Source: a virus
Taxonomy: Duplodnaviria; Caudoviricetes
IMG/VR virus record: IMGVR_UViG_2739367553_000005
Span: 21,071 to 85,070 of that record
Reading direction: 5' to 3' (one strand)
Length of the DNA stretch: 64,000 nucleotides
Position numbers and translations under genes: made by a program. The notes under the pieces are model-generated. The model searched no databases, had not been told where the DNA came from, and saw only the letters and a list, made by a program, of their open reading frames with translations. Positions 2,269 to 36,438 of this stretch are shown here, one piece after another (within the stretch, counting starts at the first letter, position 1; every line of letters starts with the position of its first letter).

Positions 2269-2460
2269 AAGTGTAAGTTGTTCTAAATCCTGATACTGAC
2301 ACTAATCATTAAGAAAGTCGGCTCTGGCTGAAGCTTATCGGTCAGAGCATTCGTTAAGAAAAGAATTTCCTCACAATTATTTGTATCTTTATTACATTTC
2401 TTTTTAATCTAAACCATAAGGTCTTCAATTGTCTGATCTAATTTTACTTTAATCATTTTT

Positions 2461-2510
2461 CCTCTTTCTACTGTTTTACGGACAGTTCCGGTTTTACGTT
2501 AAATAGCAAT
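2461..2510 (+). repeat. Repeat site A (~50 bp, ends in core TAAATAGCAAT)
   Basis: cctctttctactgttttacggacagttccggttttacgttaaatagcaat; aligns with sites B and C. Confidence 0.9.
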
Positions 2511-2610
2511 ATTCAACTCCTTTTGATTTTCTTTTAATTGTATGCTGCTTTGCTTGTACCGTTTGTCTCTATAATAAATGCCTTTTCCACCTGCTTTCTA
2601 TGTTTAAAAA

Positions 2611-2649
2611 CAACAAAGAACCTGATTATCAAAAGACTTTCAGGTTCTT
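2611..2649 (-). terminator. Intrinsic terminator downstream of the 186-aa gene
   Basis: AAGAACCTGA / TCAGGTTCTT inverted repeat with a T-rich tail on the minus strand. Confidence 0.6.
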
Positions 2650-2691
2650 AAATCAACAATAAAGTATTGCAGTTAAATGTTATTTATAATA

Positions 2692-3252
2692 TTAAACTAA
2701 AGTTACCGCCAAATTTTCAATAATTAATCCAGTAAATTCTTCTGCAGCATTCATTACTTGTTCTCTAAATAGTGGTATAACTCTGTCTCGTACAAAATGT
2801 CCAGGATTATCATTATGATCAGGATCGACTTGTATTTCTAATTTGACCTGTAAATTCTTACTTGGTTCTGCCACGAACCTTGCCTTCATAATTCCTTTAG
2901 GATGTACACTGCCCCATTCATTATTAAGAAAAGTACATTTCCCAAGTGCACACGCCCAATATTCTCCATGAGTTGTAGATGTATATTGATAAGAAATATC
3001 TAAATCAAAATACCAAAGATAGTATTTGTTTTCAATTAATATCTTTTTAACGTAGCCATTGTTGGCTACGAATTTCTCTATATGGCCTTCTCCTTTTGCC
3101 ATTATTTTATTTCCATTTCCAAACCTATCAAGATTTTCCTTATACGTTGTAAGGTCTTTTTTCACTGAAGCATTCAATATTTTACTATTCATAAAATCTA
3201 CAAATTCTTTAGTAACTACCTTTTCTTCTGTTCTTTCAAGAACTTCATTCAT
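2692..3252 (-). CDS. Hypothetical cassette-borne protein, 186 aa
   Basis: GGAGG RBS, own terminator, lies between repeat sites A and B. Confidence 0.8.
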   Translation of the reverse strand: MNEVLERTEEKVVTKEFVDFMNSKILNASVKKDLTTYKENLDRFGNGNKIMAKGEGHIEKFVANNGYVKKILIENKYYLWYFDLDISYQYTSTTHGEYWACALGKCTFLNNEWGSVHPKGIMKARFVAEPSKNLQVKLEIQVDPDHNDNPGHFVRDRVIPLFREQVMNAAEEFTGLIIENLAVTLV

Positions 3253-3354
3253 TTCAATACCTCCATTTATTATGATTACTTTTCTTTATTATTTGTTTTT
3301 TTTCGAAATTAATTCATAAAATCCATTTTGATTATTTTTTCCATAATATTTTTT

Positions 3355-3403
3355 CCTCTTTCTGCTGTTTTCGGACAGCTCCGGCTCTCAACTAAATAGC
3401 AAT
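3355..3403 (+). repeat. Repeat site B
   Basis: cctctttctgctgttttcggacagctccggctctcaactaaatagcaat. Confidence 0.9.
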
Positions 3404-3614
3404 TCTTTTTCTTTCGAAATTCTTTCGGCGATTGCCTTGCAGATAACCACCACAATTGTTAATAGGATTGTGGTTCCACCTACCATATGTACTTTTGCTT
3501 TCTGTTTTACTTTTGAACAATAAATAAAATTTATTGGATCTCCTCCCAAATAATATTTGTTATTTTCCTACAATCTGATAAAATATTATTATCAAATTGA
3601 AAGGTCGTGATTTT

Positions 3615-4442
3615 ATGTTAGATGGATTCGACAAATTAGCAGAAGGAGCCGGAAAAGCTCTGAAAAACATTCCAGAACTTTATGATGACGCTCTAAAACC
3701 TTCCGCGCAAGAATCAGGAAAACTTTTGGCTCGAATACCTCGTGCAATCAATGCTGTCTTTGCTGATCTTGATAAATGGATACTAAACAAAGAATACAGC
3801 ATTGAAGAAACAAAAAAATTATTAAGTTATAAGCTTGAAAACATCTCACCCGAAAAAATCGTAACACCAGAACCATATGTTGCAATTCCAGCAATACAAG
3901 CAATTTCTTATTCAATGGATAGTAAAGAATTAAGAAACTTATATGCTAATCTTCTTGCTAAATCAATGAATATTGATACAAAAGCTTATGTTCATCCGTC
4001 ATTTGTTGAGATAATTAAACAGATGTCTCCTATTGATGCCCGAATCTTAAACGAAATGCCTTCCAATAAAACTCTTCCATATGTAAATTTGAGTTCGACA
4101 GAGTACGACTCTGAGGTGAAAACAATTAATTTAAATTTTATAAGTCGTAGATCATTTCCTTATGTTACATACATTGATTTTACAGATTATGAAACAGTAA
4201 ATTTATCTTTAGGCAATCTGTCTCGTCTCGGATTAACTGAAACACGATTTGCACAACAAGAACCAGTTCCACAAAAAATCAAAAAATCTCCTCATTATAA
4301 TCTATGTAAAACAGAATTAGAAACATTTTTGACTAATTCAAAATGGCGTTACGAAGAGCAACTCCTTTTTCTTTGTTTAACCAGCTTTGGAATGGGTTTT
4401 TATAATGTATGCATTGAATCATTTAATCCAAATATGTTATGA
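3615..4442 (+). CDS. DUF4393 / Abi-alpha family protein (candidate abortive infection)
   Basis: Motifs P..YVAIPAIQAISYSMDSKELRNLYANLLAKSM and VHPSFVEIIKQMSPIDA typical of DUF4393; C-terminal LTSFGMGFYNVC. Confidence 0.75.
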   Translation: MLDGFDKLAEGAGKALKNIPELYDDALKPSAQESGKLLARIPRAINAVFADLDKWILNKEYSIEETKKLLSYKLENISPEKIVTPEPYVAIPAIQAISYSMDSKELRNLYANLLAKSMNIDTKAYVHPSFVEIIKQMSPIDARILNEMPSNKTLPYVNLSSTEYDSEVKTINLNFISRRSFPYVTYIDFTDYETVNLSLGNLSRLGLTETRFAQQEPVPQKIKKSPHYNLCKTELETFLTNSKWRYEEQLLFLCLTSFGMGFYNVCIESFNPNML

Positions 4443-4582
4443 TCGCTATTAAAGTATTTGATAATTGATGATTTATAATTACTCAAATAGCAAAACTGTA
4501 TTCTTGCTTTCCTCTCTCTATTTCCATATTATGGAATCACAGGTGGCTGAGCACCAAGTACAAAAGAAAGGAGGATTTAAAA

Positions 4583-5082
4583 ATGTCTTTAGCCTTAGCT
4601 TTTTATAATCATCACGGTATAATTATGTGCGCCGACAAACTAATAACCGCTACGTACAATAGATCAGGTATTAATTATGAGATACATCAATCATCTACCG
4701 AAGATAAATTATTTCTGATTGAAAATCAATATGGACTATCATATGCTGGTACGGCTTCTATAGACAATGGTCCCATATCCGCAGTAATAGAAAAATAAAT
4801 TGAACTTAATCCCTTAGGTGATGAAAATCCTTTGACACAGCGGGGATTACTTTTTCTGTGGAAAACGATTATGTTTCTCACTTAATAAGTTCCGATCTTG
4901 TTCATTTTGATTATACTAAATTCACCATGCAAGATTCTATTGATTTTTTGCGTTTCTTAGTTAGTACAGTTTCTGGATTAATGCGTTTCGGACAATGCCT
5001 ACAAACTGTAGGCGATGAATGTAACATTTTAGCAATATATCCTAACGAAGCGTACTGGGTGCAGCATTCAATTTTGCATTAA
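4583..5082 (+). pseudogene. Disrupted Ntn-hydrolase/proteasome-like gene (two fragments in different frames)
   Basis: MSLALAFYNHHGIIMCADKLIT...GLSYAGTASI stops at 4798; C-terminal part (QDSIDFLRFLVST...TVGDECNILAI) resumes at 4858 in another frame. Confidence 0.5.
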
Positions 5083-5236
5083 CTGCTTTGTCTTTCATTG
5101 GTTCAGTTAGATTTTCTGTGTTGCAATTAACATCATTAAATATTTTTTCATAACCTAATGGCCGCCCTTGAGTACTTTTTTTGAGGACGGCTGATCTTCT
5201 TTTTAATTCAGCGTACATTCTTTTTTTAATCCACAT
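5042..5236 (-). CDS. Small basic ORF starting immediately after repeat site C
   Basis: 64-aa ORF whose ATG lies just beyond the site C arm; overlaps the convergent pseudogene end. Confidence 0.3.
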   Translation of the reverse strand: MWIKKRMYAELKRRSAVLKKSTQGRPLGYEKIFNDVNCNTENLTEPMKDKAVNAKLNAAPSTLR

Positions 5237-5242
5237 ATTTAT

Positions 5243-5295
5243 TTTCTTTCTGCTGTTTCACGGACAGCTCCGTTTCTACGCTAAATAGCAATTTA
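5243..5295 (+). repeat. Repeat site C, including the 15-bp CTAAATAGCAATTTA (5281-5295)
   Basis: tttctttctgctgtttcacggacagctccgtttctacgctaaatagcaattta. Confidence 0.9.
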
Positions 5296-5571
5296 GATAA
5301 CAAGTTTAATTCGGCGGATATGATATTAAGATCTTATACTATACCGTCTGCTACATATGCATCTGGTAAAGGTGCTATACAAATTAACGGATTCACAGCT
5401 GTGCCAAGCGGATACGCTGTTTATGGCAGCAGTGTTGATACTGGTCAGTCTGCTACGATGATAGCCGATCTTAACACAGTATCAGGGAGCAATGCGTATC
5501 TATCTTATTATTCTTCCGCGCAAGTAACTACTGCAATTATAGTAAGACTGATATTGATAAAAATACCTTAA
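5281..5571 (+). other. Silent alternative C-terminal cassette for the tail fibre (96 codons, LNSNLDNKFNSADMILRSY...LILIKIP)
   Basis: Open frame begins inside the repeat with the same LNSNL peptide found in the fibre; no RBS; converges on the expressed C-terminus with 9 bp between stop codons. Confidence 0.8.
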
Positions 5572-5580
5572 ATGATCATT

Positions 5581-6528
5581 TTAGAAATAAACATCCTGTA
5601 GTGTGACCTTATCTCCTGCGTTCAAAGCTGTTGCCAATAACAAATACATTGCATTATCATGTATGCTTACATAGCCATACTTTCCAGTATCATATTGCAT
5701 ATATTTATAAAACCCACCACCACTGGGGATAACGTCTGCCGGAAGATCACAAAGCTTAATTTCAGTGGTGGAAGCAGCGTACCATTCATTTAACCCCCAC
5801 ATGGAAAATCGTTTTATTTGACCATATTTTGTAAAAATCACTTTAGCCGAAGCATCTGAATTAATTGTGAACTTCGTCTCATAAGTTTTATAACTTAAAT
5901 TGCTATTTAGTACTTTAACTACCGCGGTCAAATTTTCGCCAATTTCTAGATCTTCACCCATGCCGATCCGCTCCCAGAGGTTATGCACAAATGCTGACGT
6001 TGGGATTTTATTCTGATCATTTGCATCCATGTTGGTAAGCATATTCTTCAGCAGAGCATTCTGATCCAGGTTCATTGTAACTGCTATGGACTTTGATATC
6101 TTCCCAAGTGCAGAAGCAATAGCCTCCCCAGCTATGATGTTGGCCAGTTCCGTGGCCTGCTCAAAGAGGGTGTTTATATCAACACTCCCATCAGTCCCCA
6201 CCTTAATCCCATTGCTTCCCTTTACCAATCCCAAGGTGTTCTGTGTAGCTGTCTTTGCACTTAAACTACCGTCAGCACTTACCTCCATTGTTGTGCCGTC
6301 TGGCTTTACCGTTCCGACACTGTTTGCCGTGGCTTTGCTTGTTCCCAAAGCCGAAACCTGCCAATAATCTAAATTGGTAGGCAATGTCCCAATAGGAGGC
6401 TTAGTGTGAACCACATAACTACTCCCATCATAGGATACTAAATTTAATATTTCATACTGCTTATTAGGATTGTATTCTTCCGAAGGTAGCATTCCTATCG
6501 TGCCATATACAACTTCTGTCTCATCCAT
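5581..6528 (-). CDS. Tail fibre / receptor-binding protein with switchable C-terminus
   Basis: Fibre-type repeats (KATANSVGTVKPDG, ATQNTLGLVKGSNG); LNSNL junction at 5896-5910; tail-module position. Confidence 0.8.
   Translation of the reverse strand: MDETEVVYGTIGMLPSEEYNPNKQYEILNLVSYDGSSYVVHTKPPIGTLPTNLDYWQVSALGTSKATANSVGTVKPDGTTMEVSADGSLSAKTATQNTLGLVKGSNGIKVGTDGSVDINTLFEQATELANIIAGEAIASALGKISKSIAVTMNLDQNALLKNMLTNMDANDQNKIPTSAFVHNLWERIGMGEDLEIGENLTAVVKVLNSNLSYKTYETKFTINSDASAKVIFTKYGQIKRFSMWGLNEWYAASTTEIKLCDLPADVIPSGGGFYKYMQYDTGKYGYVSIHDNAMYLLLATALNAGDKVTLQDVYF
5896..5910 (-). repeat. Repeat site D, inverted relative to A-C
   Basis: Minus strand reads CTAAATAGCAATTTA, identical to 5281-5295 on the plus strand. 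Confidence 0.9.
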
Positions 6529-8844: not shown

Positions 8845-9963
8845 TTAATCTTCAATCAATTTAAAATTAGTAATATTCTTTAAATGCCAAGTTTTTTTAC
8901 TCATATCTAGAGTACCTTTCATCTCAATCTTTATACCATCTCTATGTGCATCGCAAGCATGCTTATAATCTTCTTCCCCCAACTCAACTTTAATTGTCCT
9001 AAATTTATTGTCTAGACAAGTCAATATGGATATTTCCCTCTTATATCTCTCTTTGTCAATTCCTTCTTTCTTTAAAGTTTTTATATAACCGTCAACTAAA
9101 ATGTCTTTTGTTTCATCAACCATTTTATATCTTTTTGATATTTCGTTTAAAACAAAAAAATGGTTTCTTTTGATATTTACTTGTTCAATAATACCTGCTT
9201 TTTTTGTTATCGCAGATGCATATCTTATTTTCGTATCTATTTCAACATCAGAATCCTCTGGATTTAACTTTAATAAAGCATCGCACATATTCGCAGTAAT
9301 TCCAGTCATATATGCATTATTTATTAACCCATCAATATCAATTTTATTTTCAACAATATCATTAACCTGGTTTATTGCATTGCCTATCCTTCTTACTATT
9401 TTATGCTCTATTGAAGAATCTAGGTTACACTCATTTAAAGACATCTGCTCATTCTCTTCATCAACTACTTTAATATCAATATTAATAACAAAACTACCTT
9501 TTTCAGTTTGCCCTAATTTAAAACTATCAAGGAATTCCTTAGAATTATTAGTAGTTCTTAAACAAACTGGTGATTTATTTTGTTCTGCGCAAGCTGAATA
9601 TAAAATAAGTTCTTTTATTCCATCCAAACAGGAACTTGCATAACCAAGTGGCAATTCACCTTCTTCTGAAAACTTAGATATTATTCTAAATTCTAGAGTA
9701 TCATAAAAAGAAGTAATTATTTCTTTTATAATCTCATCAATATCCTTTTTATATAAAAATGATAAGCGCTCTAAAGTATTAGGAAGAACTTTATAAAAAT
9801 CCAAAAATTTCTCATTTGCTGGTATTGCAATAGTCTGATCTCCTTCATGAAAGACCATCATTTTCTTATTAGGAAAATTATAATCTCTAATCCAGTTACA
9901 CAGTAATAAATACTTCTCAAAAGAGTTTGCTGTAATTTTATATAGTTTTTCATGTTTATCCAT
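8845..9963 (-). CDS. 372-aa partner of the DUF4365 protein, function unknown
   Basis: AT-rich; start overlaps the upstream stop; hairpin terminator at ~8800-8840. Confidence 0.8.
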   Translation of the reverse strand: MDKHEKLYKITANSFEKYLLLCNWIRDYNFPNKKMMVFHEGDQTIAIPANEKFLDFYKVLPNTLERLSFLYKKDIDEIIKEIITSFYDTLEFRIISKFSEEGELPLGYASSCLDGIKELILYSACAEQNKSPVCLRTTNNSKEFLDSFKLGQTEKGSFVINIDIKVVDEENEQMSLNECNLDSSIEHKIVRRIGNAINQVNDIVENKIDIDGLINNAYMTGITANMCDALLKLNPEDSDVEIDTKIRYASAITKKAGIIEQVNIKRNHFFVLNEISKRYKMVDETKDILVDGYIKTLKKEGIDKERYKREISILTCLDNKFRTIKVELGEEDYKHACDAHRDGIKIEMKGTLDMSKKTWHLKNITNFKLIED

Positions 9964-10469
9964 TACAACACCCCCCTTTTCACCATATCCATTAATCTAA
10001 TTAATTCTACAGCTGTTAGCATTTGAGTTTCTGGAATTTTTATTCTAACCTTTTGACCATTTTTAGTATCAGGTAATCCTTTTAAAGAACACCAGTAAGC
10101 ACACTTTTCTAACTTCATTTCATTACATGACACTTGAACCCAATCATTTCGATTTTTAGGCAGAACAAATAAAATAAGTATTCTTGGAGTACCAATATTT
10201 AGCTGTATTAGATCTTTGTAATTCTTAACTTCTAAATCATATATTATAATCCCTGATTTAATTTTAGCATTAACTGTAGACTTCAGTTGAATATCAATAC
10301 CAAAGCCTGTTTGCCAATGCCTCTTTCTATCTGTACTATATTCAATATCATTAATTCTAGCATCTAAACCATAATCTGATTTGTACTCTTGAAATGATAA
10401 TCCTGCATATGCTGAAATTGCCTGCGCATACGCAACACTCAATTGTTCCTTTGTATGCTCCTCAGTCAC
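9963..10469 (-). CDS. DUF4365 family PD-(D/E)XK nuclease-like protein
   Basis: KEQLSVAY...DYGLDARI...IDIQLKST...YDLEVKNYKDL...PRILILFVLP...CAYWCSLKG. Confidence 0.8.
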   Translation of the reverse strand: MTEEHTKEQLSVAYAQAISAYAGLSFQEYKSDYGLDARINDIEYSTDRKRHWQTGFGIDIQLKSTVNAKIKSGIIIYDLEVKNYKDLIQLNIGTPRILILFVLPKNRNDWVQVSCNEMKLEKCAYWCSLKGLPDTKNGQKVRIKIPETQMLTAVELIRLMDMVKRGVL

Positions 10470-13679: not shown

Positions 13680-14612
13680 TTAGTCATAAGTATACCGCAC
13701 AATCGAATTTTTTCCATCATTAAATAAATCATCTCTTTGTAACAAAATTCTATATGCATTGTCATAAAATGGAGAGGGAAAAAGATTATTGAATTTTACA
13801 AGTTCTCCATCTCCCAACCAAGAAAAGACTATATCATTACGAACCTTCAATATGCCTACGATATTTCTAGAGATATCATAATCACATGAATCATTATGTA
13901 ATTTTTTCTTTAGTATAATTGCATGTTGTGCATGTGGTCTTAAAAAAGTTGAAGGTAATGCAATTCTTAAGTCAATTGTTATTATATCATTTCCGTTTTC
14001 TACACCATTAATTGCTTCATTACTATCTGCTGCAATTAACATAACATATTGATATCTTAACGGATCATCACCTTTTAATATTCTCGTTACCATTTCAGAA
14101 TTATAATTATTTTTAATTCTATTAATATATGTTGCATAGGTAATTTTCCCTATACTTTGACAGTAATATTTATTTAAGCCAAACCATAATGCAATCCAAT
14201 GATTATCAACCGCATCAATGCAGCAAGTATTAATTCCATAGTGCTGCAACATACCTTCAATAATATCATATGAGTTTTTGTTATCCTTGTTTAAATGTAT
14301 TTCTTTTGAAAATTTTTTATCATTTAAAGATGCATTGATAATTTTTTTTAGTCTAGAAATTTTCAATCCACTTTTATTTGTTTTTTCGTGTAATAAACTG
14401 GGCAGCATAGATTCATATAAATTACACTGTCCTCTGTAATAAACTTTTCCATATTCCTGATTTAAAAGTTTGGCGTAACCAATAATTTTATTTAATCCAT
14501 GACAGTCAAATACTTCGTAAATTGGTACGCTATGGCCATTACTAAATTTAAAATCTTCAACGTACAATGTTCCTCTAATATTATTTTTACCCAATACTTT
14601 TGGATTTTTCAT
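13680..14612 (-). CDS. FRG domain protein
   Basis: YYRGQ...MLPSL...GMLQHYGINTCCIDAVDNHWIALWFG...LRPHAQHA. Confidence 0.85.
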   Translation of the reverse strand: MKNPKVLGKNNIRGTLYVEDFKFSNGHSVPIYEVFDCHGLNKIIGYAKLLNQEYGKVYYRGQCNLYESMLPSLLHEKTNKSGLKISRLKKIINASLNDKKFSKEIHLNKDNKNSYDIIEGMLQHYGINTCCIDAVDNHWIALWFGLNKYYCQSIGKITYATYINRIKNNYNSEMVTRILKGDDPLRYQYVMLIAADSNEAINGVENGNDIITIDLRIALPSTFLRPHAQHAIILKKKLHNDSCDYDISRNIVGILKVRNDIVFSWLGDGELVKFNNLFPSPFYDNAYRILLQRDDLFNDGKNSIVRYTYD

Positions 14613-14695
14613 TTTAGTACTCCAATATTATTTTAAATGCTAAATATTAAGATCAAACAACATGATTAAACAATAAAACACCTTTATTTTTTTGA

Positions 14696-15865
14696 TTACA
14701 CATCTAATTCGATCTTTCCTTCATCGGTAGTAGAAATAATATTTTTAATAAATAAATTAATTACATCTGTAATTTTTATATTTTGTTCCAGAATGTAAGA
14801 TTTTATATGAGAATAGAGAATATCTAAATTAATAAAATCAGAACAATAATTCATACCCATTTCTTCTAAAGATTTTTTTAATAACATATTATCATCAAAT
14901 CCAATTAAAATCGAACGTAAGTATTGATTCTTAATGTAATCATTGCTTAGTCTTGATTCATTAACATCGTATCCTGCTTTAATTATAGTACACTCATAAT
15001 CTCTTCCATCTTTAATTGCAGTACCTATATTATTTTCAAGAATATATTTTAATCCCGATAATGATTCCTGAGACGATAATCCAGGATCCGGACAAAAAAT
15101 TGGACATTTTTGTTCTTTAGCGAATTCTATAGAATGCATGGATCCGCTTTTTTCTTCGCATTCCATTGCAACTATTGCCTTAGACAATCCAACTATTAAT
15201 CGATTTCTATTTATAAATCTATATTTTTCTGCTCTCGTTTTAACAGGATATTCTGATAATAAAGTACCTCCATTTTTTAATATAGCGTCGGCTAATATTA
15301 CATTTTCCTTTGGATATACTCTATCTAACCCATGTGCAAGAACAGCAATAGTTTTACCTTTTGAGGTCAAGCAAGCAATATGGGATAATCTATCAATACC
15401 GTAAGCAAGACCGGAAATAATGGCAAACCCTTCATTAACCCATTGAGGAATTAAATAATTAATTGCATTAAATCCGAACTGTGTTGGTCTTCTAGTACCT
15501 ATAGAAGCTATCGCCTTGTCAAAGCCAATATTTGGATTTGCTCCTTTATAATAAATGATTGCTGGAGGATTATTTATTCTCATTAAATTGCATGGATAAT
15601 TGTCACTTGAGTAAATAGCTGTATAAACCCCCAGTTCCTGATTGATTTTCAATATTTCATCAGCCTTATTAAGAGCTTCGCTAAGTTTGCTATAATCAGA
15701 TAAAACATCCTTATAAGTCAACAACTCCATATTTGTGAGAAAGATATTGGAATTATTCTGGTCAAACAAACTGACAAGGACATCAGGATTGTAATCTAAT
15801 ATTATTTTTAATAATACATCATTTCTTAACCCCAGTTCATTTAGGGCAATTATATATCTTTCCAC
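14696..15865 (-). CDS. DprA/Smf (DNA_processg_A) domain protein, ShosA-like antitoxin
   Basis: AIASIGTRRPT, IISGLAYGIDRLSH, TIAVLAHGLDRVYP, FINRNRLIVGLS, SGSMHS. Confidence 0.85.
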   Translation of the reverse strand: MERYIIALNELGLRNDVLLKIILDYNPDVLVSLFDQNNSNIFLTNMELLTYKDVLSDYSKLSEALNKADEILKINQELGVYTAIYSSDNYPCNLMRINNPPAIIYYKGANPNIGFDKAIASIGTRRPTQFGFNAINYLIPQWVNEGFAIISGLAYGIDRLSHIACLTSKGKTIAVLAHGLDRVYPKENVILADAILKNGGTLLSEYPVKTRAEKYRFINRNRLIVGLSKAIVAMECEEKSGSMHSIEFAKEQKCPIFCPDPGLSSQESLSGLKYILENNIGTAIKDGRDYECTIIKAGYDVNESRLSNDYIKNQYLRSILIGFDDNMLLKKSLEEMGMNYCSDFINLDILYSHIKSYILEQNIKITDVINLFIKNIISTTDEGKIELDV

Positions 15866-15889
15866 TTTTATACTTCCTTAAATAAGATT

Positions 15890-17094
15890 TTACGAATTAA
15901 AAATTTTATACAATTCTGTAATCTCATCTTTTGCGCTGTCTTCATAATCCAAATACCGTACTTCTGAATTTACATTTTTATATTCGTATCCAATATTATA
16001 TACATCTCCTGAAATATTGTAATCTACTTTTTGAAAAGGCTTTCCAAAGTTACCTAAGGAAACAAACACTATTTTATTAACTCCAAGTTTTTTTAATAAA
16101 TTTCTAATAGCATTAAATGTATTTCCATGAGTCATATAATCATCAAAGATACAAACATTAAATCTATTCTCTTTTTTTAACCGGTCAATTTTAGATCTAT
16201 ATTCAGGGTTGATCCTAATCGTTTCAAATTCCTTATTTGCTCCCATTGAAGTTCTGGCAGTCTGATTTGCAAGCATATGCGCCTGGGTTTTAGGTTTAAC
16301 CCGCTCTAATATATTGGGATTATTCATTTGATTTTTTGGTAAACGCTTTCCTTTTATGTAGCGAACCTGAGTCATAAAACTAAAAATATATTCATTCAAA
16401 TGGCAGTCTGATGATGGAATCATACCAAAAAGTTCTATATCATCAAATAACTGAGTGTTAGTCATACCTGCTAAAAAGTGGTAAAGTAAAATAGTGTAAT
16501 AATTTCTACTTGTACCCTTTTTAACAGACTTTCAAAATGCTCCACCATTTCACGCTCACTATCCGTTTTAGCTTTGTATTTATATCTTCCGTCCATTAAA
16601 GATAGAGCTTTCACATTTGGTTCAATTTCTAATTCAGCATACCAACTTTCTTGATTATTTAAAGTTTTAATAAACTTAAATAATTGCTTAGGAGTATCAA
16701 CATGGACACCATAGAACTCTGCTTTATCTTCTACAGGTATCCACGTTGGAACTATAAAGAGTGAGTGGCTTAAAACCGCTAAATGAAAATCCACTTCTTT
16801 ACCACTGACAAAAACAAAGAAGTGATTTTTTGTCTTATGTTGACTGATAAAGTCACGAACTTTACTTCTCACACAAAATTTTAAATTAATAAATCCCCTT
16901 TTATTAAAAAAATTTTTAGCAGCATTTAATTGTGACAAATCCCGACTAACAAAAAAAATTTTATTTTCGTCAGCAGTACATAATTCATTTGCATATTCCA
17001 AAAAGTTATAAACCTTTTTCTCATGTTCGATTTTATCATAATTAGTAAATGATAACCTAAGTAAATCAAGATTACAAAATAGTATCTTCTCCAT
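15890..17094 (-). pseudogene. HAD-like plus phosphoribosyltransferase fusion (ShosT-like toxin) split by a -1 frameshift near 16520
   Basis: ORFs 16471-17094 and 15890-16465 join if the A5 run (plus-strand T 16518-16522) is A6, reading ESLLKKGTSRNYY...AGMTNTQ; PRTase motif VCIFDDYMTHGNTF. Confidence 0.75.
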
Positions 17095-35020: not shown

Positions 35021-35404
35021 CTATATTTTAAAATGATTAACGCTACTAAGTGATTTATTATGAATATTAAAAATCTGCCTTACACTATACCCCATTTTGT
35101 CTGCAATAACGTCCCATGTATAACCTCTTATGTACCGATATTTCATCAATCGCTTTTCCTGTTCATCTTCCATATTCTCAATTTTATCATATAGTTCCAG
35201 GCAAATTTTCACCTTCTGGTATCGGTAGCAAATAACTTTCTGTTTCAGATCATTAAGAGCATCTACATATTTATCGTCGTAACCATAAGAAGCCATCTCT
35301 TTCTGTATTATCTGGATATCTTCATCCGCATCAGAAATAGCAGCATTGAATGCAACCAGATTTTTTAATTGATCCATTGTCTTATTTTTCATTAGGCTAT
35401 ACAC
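35021..35404 (-). CDS. DUF1492/ArpU-like transcriptional regulator
   Basis: KYRYIRGYTWDVIADKMGYSVRQIFNIHNKSL. Confidence 0.75.
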   Translation of the reverse strand: MYSLMKNKTMDQLKNLVAFNAAISDADEDIQIIQKEMASYGYDDKYVDALNDLKQKVICYRYQKVKICLELYDKIENMEDEQEKRLMKYRYIRGYTWDVIADKMGYSVRQIFNIHNKSLSSVNHFKI

Positions 35405-36438
35405 CTCTCTCTTATGTTTCTTAATGTGTCAGGAGTTGATTGAGCATAATAAGCTGCCGTTACCGAAGGGCTTCCATGACCCATAATCTCCTGAATTGTT
35501 CCAATGTCCACACCTTTGTTTTTGAGTGTCATTCCGAGCGTCTTCCGGATCTTATGTGGGTATACCCTACTCTTTACCATGGCGCGCTTTCCGATAGTTT
35601 TAAGAATGCTCCTAATTCCGGAAGTAGTCATTTGATCATGCGGCGCCTTACACTGAGGAAACATAAAAGGGCTATCGTCATTCCGGGAGTCCATATATTT
35701 GCGGTAATAATATCTTGCATCATCATCTAAAAATATCGGCCGGTATTTGTCGCTCTTCTCACCCAAGATCATGATATCACCGGTATTCCAATCTATCTGG
35801 TCAAGAGTTATCTCTACCAGCTCCCCTACTCTGGCACCGGTGCTGCGAAGCACTTCTATTAAAGCACGTTCCCGGTAACTCTTACAGGCGTCTTTCATTT
35901 TTGTCATCTCTTCAGGCTTAAAATAATCAATCGGCTTTTTGATAGCTTTGAGTGGATCCGTTGCCTCGACCGGATTTTCTCCAATCAATTTTTCCTTTCG
36001 CATCCAAGTGAAGAAAGCAGAGAGGAAACGTCTTTCATTATTTACGGTTATGGCCTGATTCTTCTTGCCACTGGCATTTATATTCCGCTTCTCATACCAG
36101 GACAGGTAATAGCTGATATCGGATTCCTCTATCCTATCCAGCGGCTTGTCAATCAAGGTAATCAGGCGTTTAACTGAACTAAGATATGCTTGCTTAGTAT
36201 TATCTTTTATTTTTTTCTTCACTATAAAAAGCTGAACGATGTACTTATTCTTCTGATCCGTGTCATTCTGATATTCTACCGGAAGAGTGGTTATTTCTTC
36301 CATGTTGACATTGACAAATTCCTTTATGATTACCTGATGAAGAATGTCTAAAACATCTTTAGTCACATGCTCTGCCATGGCAACAATAATGTTGTTAATT
36401 ACCTGCGCTTTTATGGTTTGTCCATTCATAATATGCAA
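35392..36438 (-). CDS. Second tyrosine recombinase (XerD-like)
   Basis: STGARVGEL, VYPHKIRKT, IQEIMGHGSPSVTAAYY (R-H-R-H-Y catalytic set). Confidence 0.92.
   Translation of the reverse strand: MHIMNGQTIKAQVINNIIVAMAEHVTKDVLDILHQVIIKEFVNVNMEEITTLPVEYQNDTDQKNKYIVQLFIVKKKIKDNTKQAYLSSVKRLITLIDKPLDRIEESDISYYLSWYEKRNINASGKKNQAITVNNERRFLSAFFTWMRKEKLIGENPVEATDPLKAIKKPIDYFKPEEMTKMKDACKSYRERALIEVLRSTGARVGELVEITLDQIDWNTGDIMILGEKSDKYRPIFLDDDARYYYRKYMDSRNDDSPFMFPQCKAPHDQMTTSGIRSILKTIGKRAMVKSRVYPHKIRKTLGMTLKNKGVDIGTIQEIMGHGSPSVTAAYYAQSTPDTLRNIRERCIA

What the first reader, a model, noticed from the sequence alone, without database searches (positions are those of the whole stretch)
5281..5910. Invertible tail-fibre C-terminus (shufflon) with a silent in-frame alternative
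Seen: a perfect 15-bp inverted repeat CTAAATAGCAATTTA at 5281-5295 (+) and 5896-5910 (-). It contains palindromic arms TAAAT/ATTTA around an asymmetric AGCA centre. It encodes LNSNL in the fibre, and the other copy opens a stop-free 96-codon frame. The two C-termini (109 and 96 aa) converge with 9 bp between their stops. Known precedent: Mu G-segment, P1 C-segment and p15B Min switch fibre C-termini this way. Inference: inversion swaps the receptor-binding domain.
Basis: partly seen in the sequence, partly recalled or inferred. Interest (0 to 1): 0.85.

Follow-up and report, generated by a model that had tools for sequence, protein, structure and literature searches.

The report
Two-site swappable phage tail-fibre tips
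This prophage keeps a spare, backwards-facing tip for its tail fibre between two flip sites, and a second, symmetric site between the two tips appears to let tips be re-paired and traded among unrelated phages and a bacterial Rhs locus, but the enzyme that does the cutting is missing from this strain.

Summary
Observation confirmed: 15-bp inverted repeat at 5281-5295/5896-5910, tips of 109 and 96 aa, 9 bp between stops. It is a two-tip, recombinase-less member of a tyrosine-recombinase tail-fibre shufflon family of Lacrimispora prophages (Rin-like, known kind). B sits at 31 of 37 unbiased tip junctions (control 3%). The expressed tip occurs with 7 different neighbours, always switching at B. 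It is silent in five other loci, one behind the same fibre family. The identical 628 bp (0 mismatches, ending exactly at both A sites) sits in an Rhs-linked locus with unrelated flanks. Relatives with four tips carry a ~340-aa tyrosine recombinase beside A sites; this genome's best match is 27-29%. No flipped copy of this pair and no inverted joint were found, so switching in this strain is unproven and probably needs a helper. The scan noted this shufflon family, and site B once, on other DNA; I found no paper on site B.

The parts
5896..5910 (-). Site A inside the fibre gene (arms TAA/TTA, asymmetric 8-bp spacer ATAGCAAT), in frame as LNSNL
   Evidence: homology to other loci breaks here
5281..5295 (+). 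Inverted copy of site A heading the silent tip
5911..6528 (-). Constant N-terminus (206 aa) of the putative tail fibre / receptor-binding protein
   Evidence: 75-90% identical N-termini in 9 loci, each with another tip; only a weak PHROG tail-fibre hit, E 0.008; position between tail genes and holin
5581..5910 (-). Expressed tip (tip 1, 109 aa)
   Evidence: 5 homologues at 62-100%; expressed in window, L152, L174; silent in L156, L158, L226, L227, L241
5281..5571 (+). Silent tip (tip 2, 96 aa, no own start in frame before the site)
   Evidence: AlphaFold six-strand beta sandwich, pLDDT 63; Atlas recognition 2445; no homologue among 1.84 billion representatives besides itself
5569..5583 (.). 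Site B: arms of site A around the palindromic spacer ATGATCAT; its arms supply both stop codons
5237..5280 (-). Conserved leader (short GC-rich inverted repeat plus ribosome-binding site) that follows outward-facing A sites and precedes cargo genes
   Evidence: 15 copies aligned, 78% mean identity; no Rfam match
3347..3403 (+). Second direct copy of leader plus site A (11-bp core intact, right arm decayed)
2457..2510 (+). Third direct copy of leader plus site A (right arm decayed)
3597..4442 (+). Cargo between A copies: Abi-alpha family / PADLOC PDC-S47 gene
   Evidence: Pfam PF14337 E 2e-46; PDC-S47 E 2e-101
2692..3252 (-). Cargo between A copies: 186-aa gene of unknown function
   Evidence: no family
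35392..36429 (-). Intact arm-less tyrosine recombinase, 30 kb away; only a weak candidate helper
   Evidence: R200, K225, H292, R295, H318, Y328 kept; 27-29% to the site-linked enzymes; no A or B site near it or its orthologues

Best explanation
The segment is a two-tip module, A>tip1>B<tip2<A, of a tyrosine-recombinase shufflon family of Lacrimispora phages. Step 1 (inferred from anatomy and relatives): recombination between the two inverted, asymmetric A sites flips 628 bp and puts tip 2 in frame behind the constant fibre N-terminus. Step 2 (shown as an outcome, mechanism inferred): crossovers at the symmetric B site between two molecules re-pair tips, so each tip behaves as an A-to-B cassette. 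Step 3 (shown as an outcome): crossovers at both A sites move the whole unit between unrelated backbones, including a bacterial Rhs-linked locus. The cognate enzyme is most likely the ~340-aa XerD-like family found beside A and B sites in four-tip relatives. This genome lacks it, so here the switch is mostly locked and moves only when a helper phage, or a weakly cross-reacting resident enzyme, supplies activity. The tips most likely set host or surface recognition (inferred).
For: Same N-terminus, different tip at LNSNL in all relatives. 15 of 33 multi-member tip families occur both expressed and silent. Tip 1 is silent behind an 82% identical N-terminus and the same leader in L226. Outer spacers match at both ends in 17 of 17 loci across three spacer variants. 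B core exact in 23 and within one mismatch in 31 of 37 pairs chosen without B, against 6 and 130 of 4503 ordinary stops. Tip 1 has 7 different sequences beyond B in 8 loci, with homology ending at B; 20 tip families have more than one partner, which inversions at A cannot produce. Identical 628 bp with zero extension beyond the A sites in L152-L155. L240 and L241 share a 1748-bp recombinase module at 99.9% and differ in every tip, breaking at A. Closest relatives of that enzyme (69-89%) lie beside A/B sites, and tip 1 itself lies next to it in L241. Best match in this 99.98% complete genome is 29%.
Against: No flipped copy of this pair; all four pairs seen twice share orientation. No inverted joint in the source runs, though contigs drop rare forms. 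Tip 2 was never seen expressed. The sites have very short conserved arms, and no enzyme-site pairing was tested. Three loci with a tip ending directly on an inverted A, and two with B in the place of A, show the two classes are not strictly separate. Matching spacers may partly reflect common descent. The fibre identity and receptor binding rest on weak hits.
Confidence: 0.7

Rival explanations
1. The segment flips actively in this strain, driven in trans by the prophage's own second tyrosine recombinase (35392-36429) or by a host Xer-like enzyme.
For: The enzyme is intact, is this genome's best match to the site-linked enzymes, and is kept at 84-97% in ten related prophages, several of which carry A pairs. 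Both A sites are perfect. A recombinase-less invertible locus with a trans enzyme was proposed for bifidophages (PMC6109161).
Against: Only 27-29% identity; no A or B site beside it or its orthologues; many genomes with pairs lack it (G404, G411, G413, G416, G419, G420, G422, G442), as does the second prophage of this genome. One unbroken 11,991-bp contig spans the locus in both source runs at about 100-fold depth.
Confidence: 0.2
2. B is not a recombinase target but a scar or a conserved double stop left by the way tips were captured; partners change by short-homology recombination at the shared 12-14 bp.
For: B gives stop codons on both strands; about a third of junctions are degenerate; arms are short and AT-rich.
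Against: An exact 8-bp palindrome inside the arms of A is kept across more than 100 unrelated tip families; breakpoints fall on it repeatedly; it stays the same while the outer spacer changes between three variants; stop codons alone do not need this sequence.
Confidence: 0.15
3. Tips change state only by exchange between molecules (A-to-B cassette replacement); inversion in cis is rare, and the silent tip is a passenger.
For: Repeated pairs keep their orientation; tip 2 is never seen fused; many pairs lie away from any N-terminus.
Against: The two outer spacers of one locus always match, which is what in-cis inversion needs; four repeats in one orientation is weak (about 1 in 16 by chance); earlier scan notes report alternative arrangements in four-tip relatives (not rechecked by reads here).
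Confidence: 0.12
4. Chance inverted repeat and chance open frame.
For: A 15-bp inverted repeat within 1 kb arises in a quarter of shuffled windows.
Against: 107 against 9 hits in the genus; a second such pair in this genome; breakpoints exactly at the sites.
Confidence: 0.01

Closest known systems
Rin shufflon of Bifidobacterium and Eggerthella prophages (PMC6109161; PMC8778435)
   Same: Constant N-terminus plus dissimilar ~100-aa variable C-termini, each behind a short asymmetric in-frame repeat; arm-less tyrosine recombinase in the four-tip relatives.
   Different: Other site sequence; no recombinase at this locus; one site class in Rin, with a second rix after the expressed gene, whereas here tips end on a distinct palindromic site; Rin was not reported to share tips with a non-phage locus.
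Recombinase-less inverted locus of bifidophages Bb423phi2 and 689b-1 (PMC6109161)
   Same: About 500 bp, two dissimilar segments, short crossover, no flanking recombinase, enzyme presumed in trans.
   Different: There both orientations were seen in two phages; here only one was. No central second site was described there.
Mu Gin / P1 Cin / p15B Min (from PMC6109161 and own knowledge)
   Same: Inversion replaces the fibre C-terminus at a site inside the reading frame.
   Different: Serine invertase next to the segment, longer sites, kilobase segments with assembly-chaperone genes; none of these here.
Xenorhabdus tailocin extra tail-fibre genes (10.1101/2025.04.19.648921)
   Same: Silent C-terminal fibre fragments swapped in at short repeats without a linked invertase; bacterial locus using phage fibre tips.
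   Different: Tailocin operon of enterobacteria, 7-bp repeat, 4.6-kb segment; no second site class; the host locus here is Rhs-linked.
Engineered Cre systems: heterospecific lox cassette exchange and loxPsym (PMC8762395)
   Same: One arm type with several non-matching spacers; an asymmetric spacer sets direction and a palindromic spacer removes it.
   Different: Engineered, 13-bp arms; here natural, with 3-5 bp conserved arms and untested chemistry.

Membership tests
Rin shufflon | Constant N-terminus with alternative, mutually dissimilar C-terminal cassettes | tested here: met
   the two tips do not hit each other; relatives carry other tips at the same site
Rin shufflon | Short asymmetric crossover site in frame ahead of each cassette, rare elsewhere in the host | tested here: met
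   5 copies of the 14-mer in 5.6 Mb, all at tips or cassettes of two prophages
Rin shufflon | Arm-less tyrosine invertase flanking the cassettes | tested here: not met
   none within 29 kb; met in four-tip relatives L088, L240, L241, L244
Rin shufflon | rix sequence, with a second direct rix right after the expressed gene | tested here: not met
   site differs from the published 11-mer; the expressed gene ends on site B
Rin shufflon | Inversions seen in reads | tested here: inconclusive
   only assembled contigs were served; no inverted joint
Gin/Cin/Min invertible fibre segments | Adjacent serine invertase | tested here: not met
   9 resolvase-family genes in the genome, none on this contig
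Gin/Cin/Min invertible fibre segments | Fis-dependent enhancer | not tested
   no tool for it; not expected in Clostridia (own knowledge)
Tyrosine-recombinase core site | Inverted arms around a 6-8 bp spacer that must match between partners | tested here: met
   arms plus 8-bp spacer; spacers match at both ends in 17 of 17 loci over three variants; comparative evidence only
Tyrosine-recombinase core site | Cleavage and exchange by the named enzyme | not testable with these tools
   needs a recombination assay
Phage receptor-binding tip domain | Beta-sandwich head with fold similarity to known fibre or tailspike heads | tested here: inconclusive
   six-strand model at pLDDT 63; best Z 6.1, tailspike/pyocin/RBP heads at Z 4-5; viral hits E 0.003 or weaker
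Integron-like cassette array (cargo at 2500-5295) | Integron integrase and folded attC sites | tested here: not met
   no enzyme above the integron-integrase cut-off among those tested; sites are 14 bp direct repeats with a leader

The most novel reading that the evidence does not exclude
One tyrosine-recombinase family runs a natural two-spacer cassette-exchange system: directional A sites flip or transplant tip pairs, a non-directional palindromic B site re-pairs single tips, and together they sustain a genus-wide pool of more than 100 tip families shared by unrelated prophages and a bacterial Rhs-linked locus whose 38-aa mini-fibre gene uses the same tips, perhaps to aim an antibacterial Rhs protein.
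Probability: 0.5. Interest if true: 0.78.

Novelty: new variant of a known kind. Interest (0 to 1): 0.58.

Why it matters
Fibre-tip inversion is known, but it is usually a closed set of tips within one phage. Here the evidence points to an open system: single ~300-bp tips bounded by two different sites are re-paired and passed, base-perfect, between unrelated phages and a host locus. If confirmed, this explains where shufflons get new cassettes, gives a natural counterpart of engineered lox cassette exchange and of symmetric loxPsym sites, links phage host-range parts to an Rhs locus, and names an enzyme (P0007/P0008 family) and two 14-bp sites that can be tested in one plasmid assay.

Tried and rejected
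Searches for the silent tip fused to any N-terminus found nothing: longer proteins, genome and viral contigs, 1.84 billion representatives. DNA of the segment was not found in 48 genus genomes. Tip 1 was not found in JGI metagenomes or GenBank phages. The full-length fibre model failed (pLDDT 32) and was not searched. Fold hits of tip 2 to dUTPase-like folds (Z 5-6) are a common arrangement, not evidence. No Rfam family for the leader; promoter hits at chance level. A dif-like origin of the sites or a site beside a host Xer gene was not found. My idea of a wider array of same-arm sites around the 345-aa recombinase was not supported: one weak look-alike only. The 605-bp contig of G418 that is exactly one A-tip-B-tip-A unit first looked like a sign of inversion; three flanks lead into it, so it is better read as a unit present twice. 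B counts are inflated by loci fetched with B in the pattern; I quote the unbiased counts. Outside the genus the 14-mer is at background (10 of 300 genomes). Small-share sequencing runs were not used. Paper searches found no description of this site or of site B.

Full report
Setting. The window is part of a prophage on contig C16 of a 5.6-Mb, nearly complete genome. Members of its genus are named Lacrimispora in fetched records. The ORF 5581-6528 (-) lies after the distal-tail and tail genes and before the holin and lysin. Its fibre identity rests on this position and weak PHROG hits.

Observation. The repeat alone could be chance (5 of 20 shuffles). It is not: the 14-bp core (site A) has 107 hits in 35 of 49 genus genomes against 9 for the reversed control, a second prophage of this genome has its own pair with unrelated tips, and outside the genus the hits fall to background.

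Site A is a crossover point. Six viral contigs and three genomes carry this N-terminus at 75-90% identity, each with a different tip starting at LNSNL. Of 33 tip families with several members, 15 occur both fused and silent. Our expressed tip is silent in L156 (88%), L158 (62%), L226 (83%), L227 (79%) and L241. L226 is the nearest thing to the flipped state: an 82% identical N-terminus, the same outer leader, tip 1 silent, but another tip expressed. Three spacer variants exist, and both ends of a locus share the variant in 17 of 17 loci. That is what a tyrosine recombinase needing matched spacers would leave, although shared descent explains part of it.

What is not shown. No copy of this pair in the other orientation was found. 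Tip 2 has no homologue at all apart from identical copies. Four pairs seen twice keep their orientation. Both source runs give one unbroken contig over the locus at about 100-fold depth, with no inverted joint; contigs would hide rare forms.

The bases between the stops are the spacer of a second site with the arms of A and a palindromic 8-bp centre; the arms provide the two stop codons. Among 37 pairs fetched without using B, the centre is exact in 23 and within one mismatch in 31; around 4503 ordinary stop codons the figures are 6 and 130. Inversion at A flips a pair but cannot change partners. Yet 20 tip families have more than one partner, and tip 1 is followed by 7 different sequences in 8 loci, with homology ending on B each time. 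So B is a crossover point too. A palindromic spacer would make it non-directional, as with loxPsym (PMC8762395); that step is inference. A few loci show B in the place of A, or a tip ending directly on an inverted A, so rare A x B events or short-homology deletions also occur.

The unit moves. The 628 bp from A to A occur with no mismatch, and no identity one base beyond, in four metagenome contigs from two studies. There tip 1 is fused to a 38-aa N-terminus, and the neighbours are a 351-aa gene and the locus seen in G422 (96% over 1.5 kb). In such loci the next gene is an Rhs/YD-repeat protein. The 351-aa gene is in 25 of 49 genus genomes, not in this one; I recognised no phage structural genes in the flanks I read. 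With no flanking homology, ordinary homologous recombination cannot explain the transfer. Its direction is unknown.

The enzyme. Four-tip versions exist. In G446 a 348-aa XerD-like recombinase lies between two A-B-A pairs in the same gene context as this window. Its closest relatives (69-89%) also lie beside A and B sites. L240 and L241 share a 1748-bp enzyme module at 99.9% but differ in all tips, breaking at A, and L241 holds tip 1 next to the enzyme. A related 339-aa enzyme goes with a variant spacer in Rhs loci and near other fibres. This genome has neither: best match 27-29%, the prophage's own 345-aa enzyme 30 kb away. That enzyme is intact but has no sites near it and is missing from many genomes with pairs. 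No serine recombinase lies on this contig. I therefore read this locus as an orphan module, locked most of the time.

Wider anatomy. Two more direct copies of A, each with a conserved leader and ribosome-binding site, lie at 2500 and 3393 and bracket cargo: a 186-aa unknown gene and an Abi-alpha/PDC-S47 gene. Inversion to these would give dead tips of 12 and 43 aa; recombination between them would excise cargo. A third silent tip of 140 aa with its own B and A sites lies 3.8-5.1 kb left of the window, beyond the lysin.

The tips. Tip 2 folds as a six-strand beta sandwich (pLDDT 63) with only weak matches, among them tailspike and fibre heads. Atlas neighbours of both tips are unnamed viral proteins. 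Receptor binding is likely from position and diversity but untested.

Comparison. It works like the Rin shufflon and most resembles the recombinase-less two-segment locus in the same paper (PMC6109161; PMC8778435). It is not a Rin member: other site, no flanking enzyme, and a second site class. It is not of the Gin/Cin/Min type. Silent fibre ends used by a bacterial locus without a linked invertase are known from Xenorhabdus tailocins. I found no paper describing site B or tip sharing with an Rhs locus. Earlier notes of this scan describe this shufflon family in other genomes, and one first-stage note proposes the B class; I had noted B before seeing it, and the tests above are my own.

Verdict. 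A real feature and a new variant of a known kind. The flip itself is ordinary and unproven in this strain. The two-site exchange and the shared tip pool are the interesting part, well supported as outcomes and untested as chemistry. Interest 0.58.

Noticed in passing
G000:C16 about 1400-40700 (window -19900 to 19400): Late genes are permuted: terminase, then distal tail, tail, fibre, lysis, then portal, capsid, tape measure. The same order occurs in G406, G409, G434, G440, G447, so it is not an assembly error; orphan tip pairs often sit at the two block junctions.
   Followed up: partly
L002:14946-16198 (window -5054 to -3802): Third silent tip (140 aa) with B and an inverted A; the other half of the unit holds a 210-aa cargo gene instead of a tip.
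   Followed up: partly
L001:10508-11227 (G000:C8): A second prophage of this genome has its own A-tip-B-tip-A pair (121 and 115 aa) with a perfect B and no recombinase besides its integrase.
   Followed up: partly
window 8845-10469: Two-gene candidate defence system PDC-M02A/B inserted in the tail module.
   Followed up: partly
window 13680-17094: FRG-domain gene plus ShosTA-like genes (DprA-like ShosA; ShosT matched by two adjacent ORFs) between the terminase block and the distal-tail gene.
   Followed up: partly
L063, L080, L081, L087, L095, L152, L217-L220, L230-L233: Rhs-linked locus in 25 of 49 genus genomes: 38-aa fibre-like N-terminus with swappable tips, a 351-aa tryptophan-repeat protein of no known family, and an Rhs/DUF6531 gene, in varied chromosomal contexts.
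   Followed up: partly
L216:4335-6885, L218:3916-6387, L219:4074-6105: The 339-aa recombinase is flanked by near-identical 430-690 bp copies of tip DNA (inverted or direct); real duplications or assembly traces of mixed populations.
   Followed up: no
L014:5457-5734, L071, L089: Single tips enclosed directly by inverted A sites; flipping would leave a 7-19 aa stub, an on/off form of the switch.
   Followed up: no
window 4583-5236: Short, apparently decayed ORFs (71, 74 and 64 aa) between the Abi-alpha gene and the leader at 5237.
   Followed up: no
L092 (G418:C42) and G439 contig ends: Assemblies break at these units because one pair or tip is present in two prophages of the same genome.
   Followed up: partly
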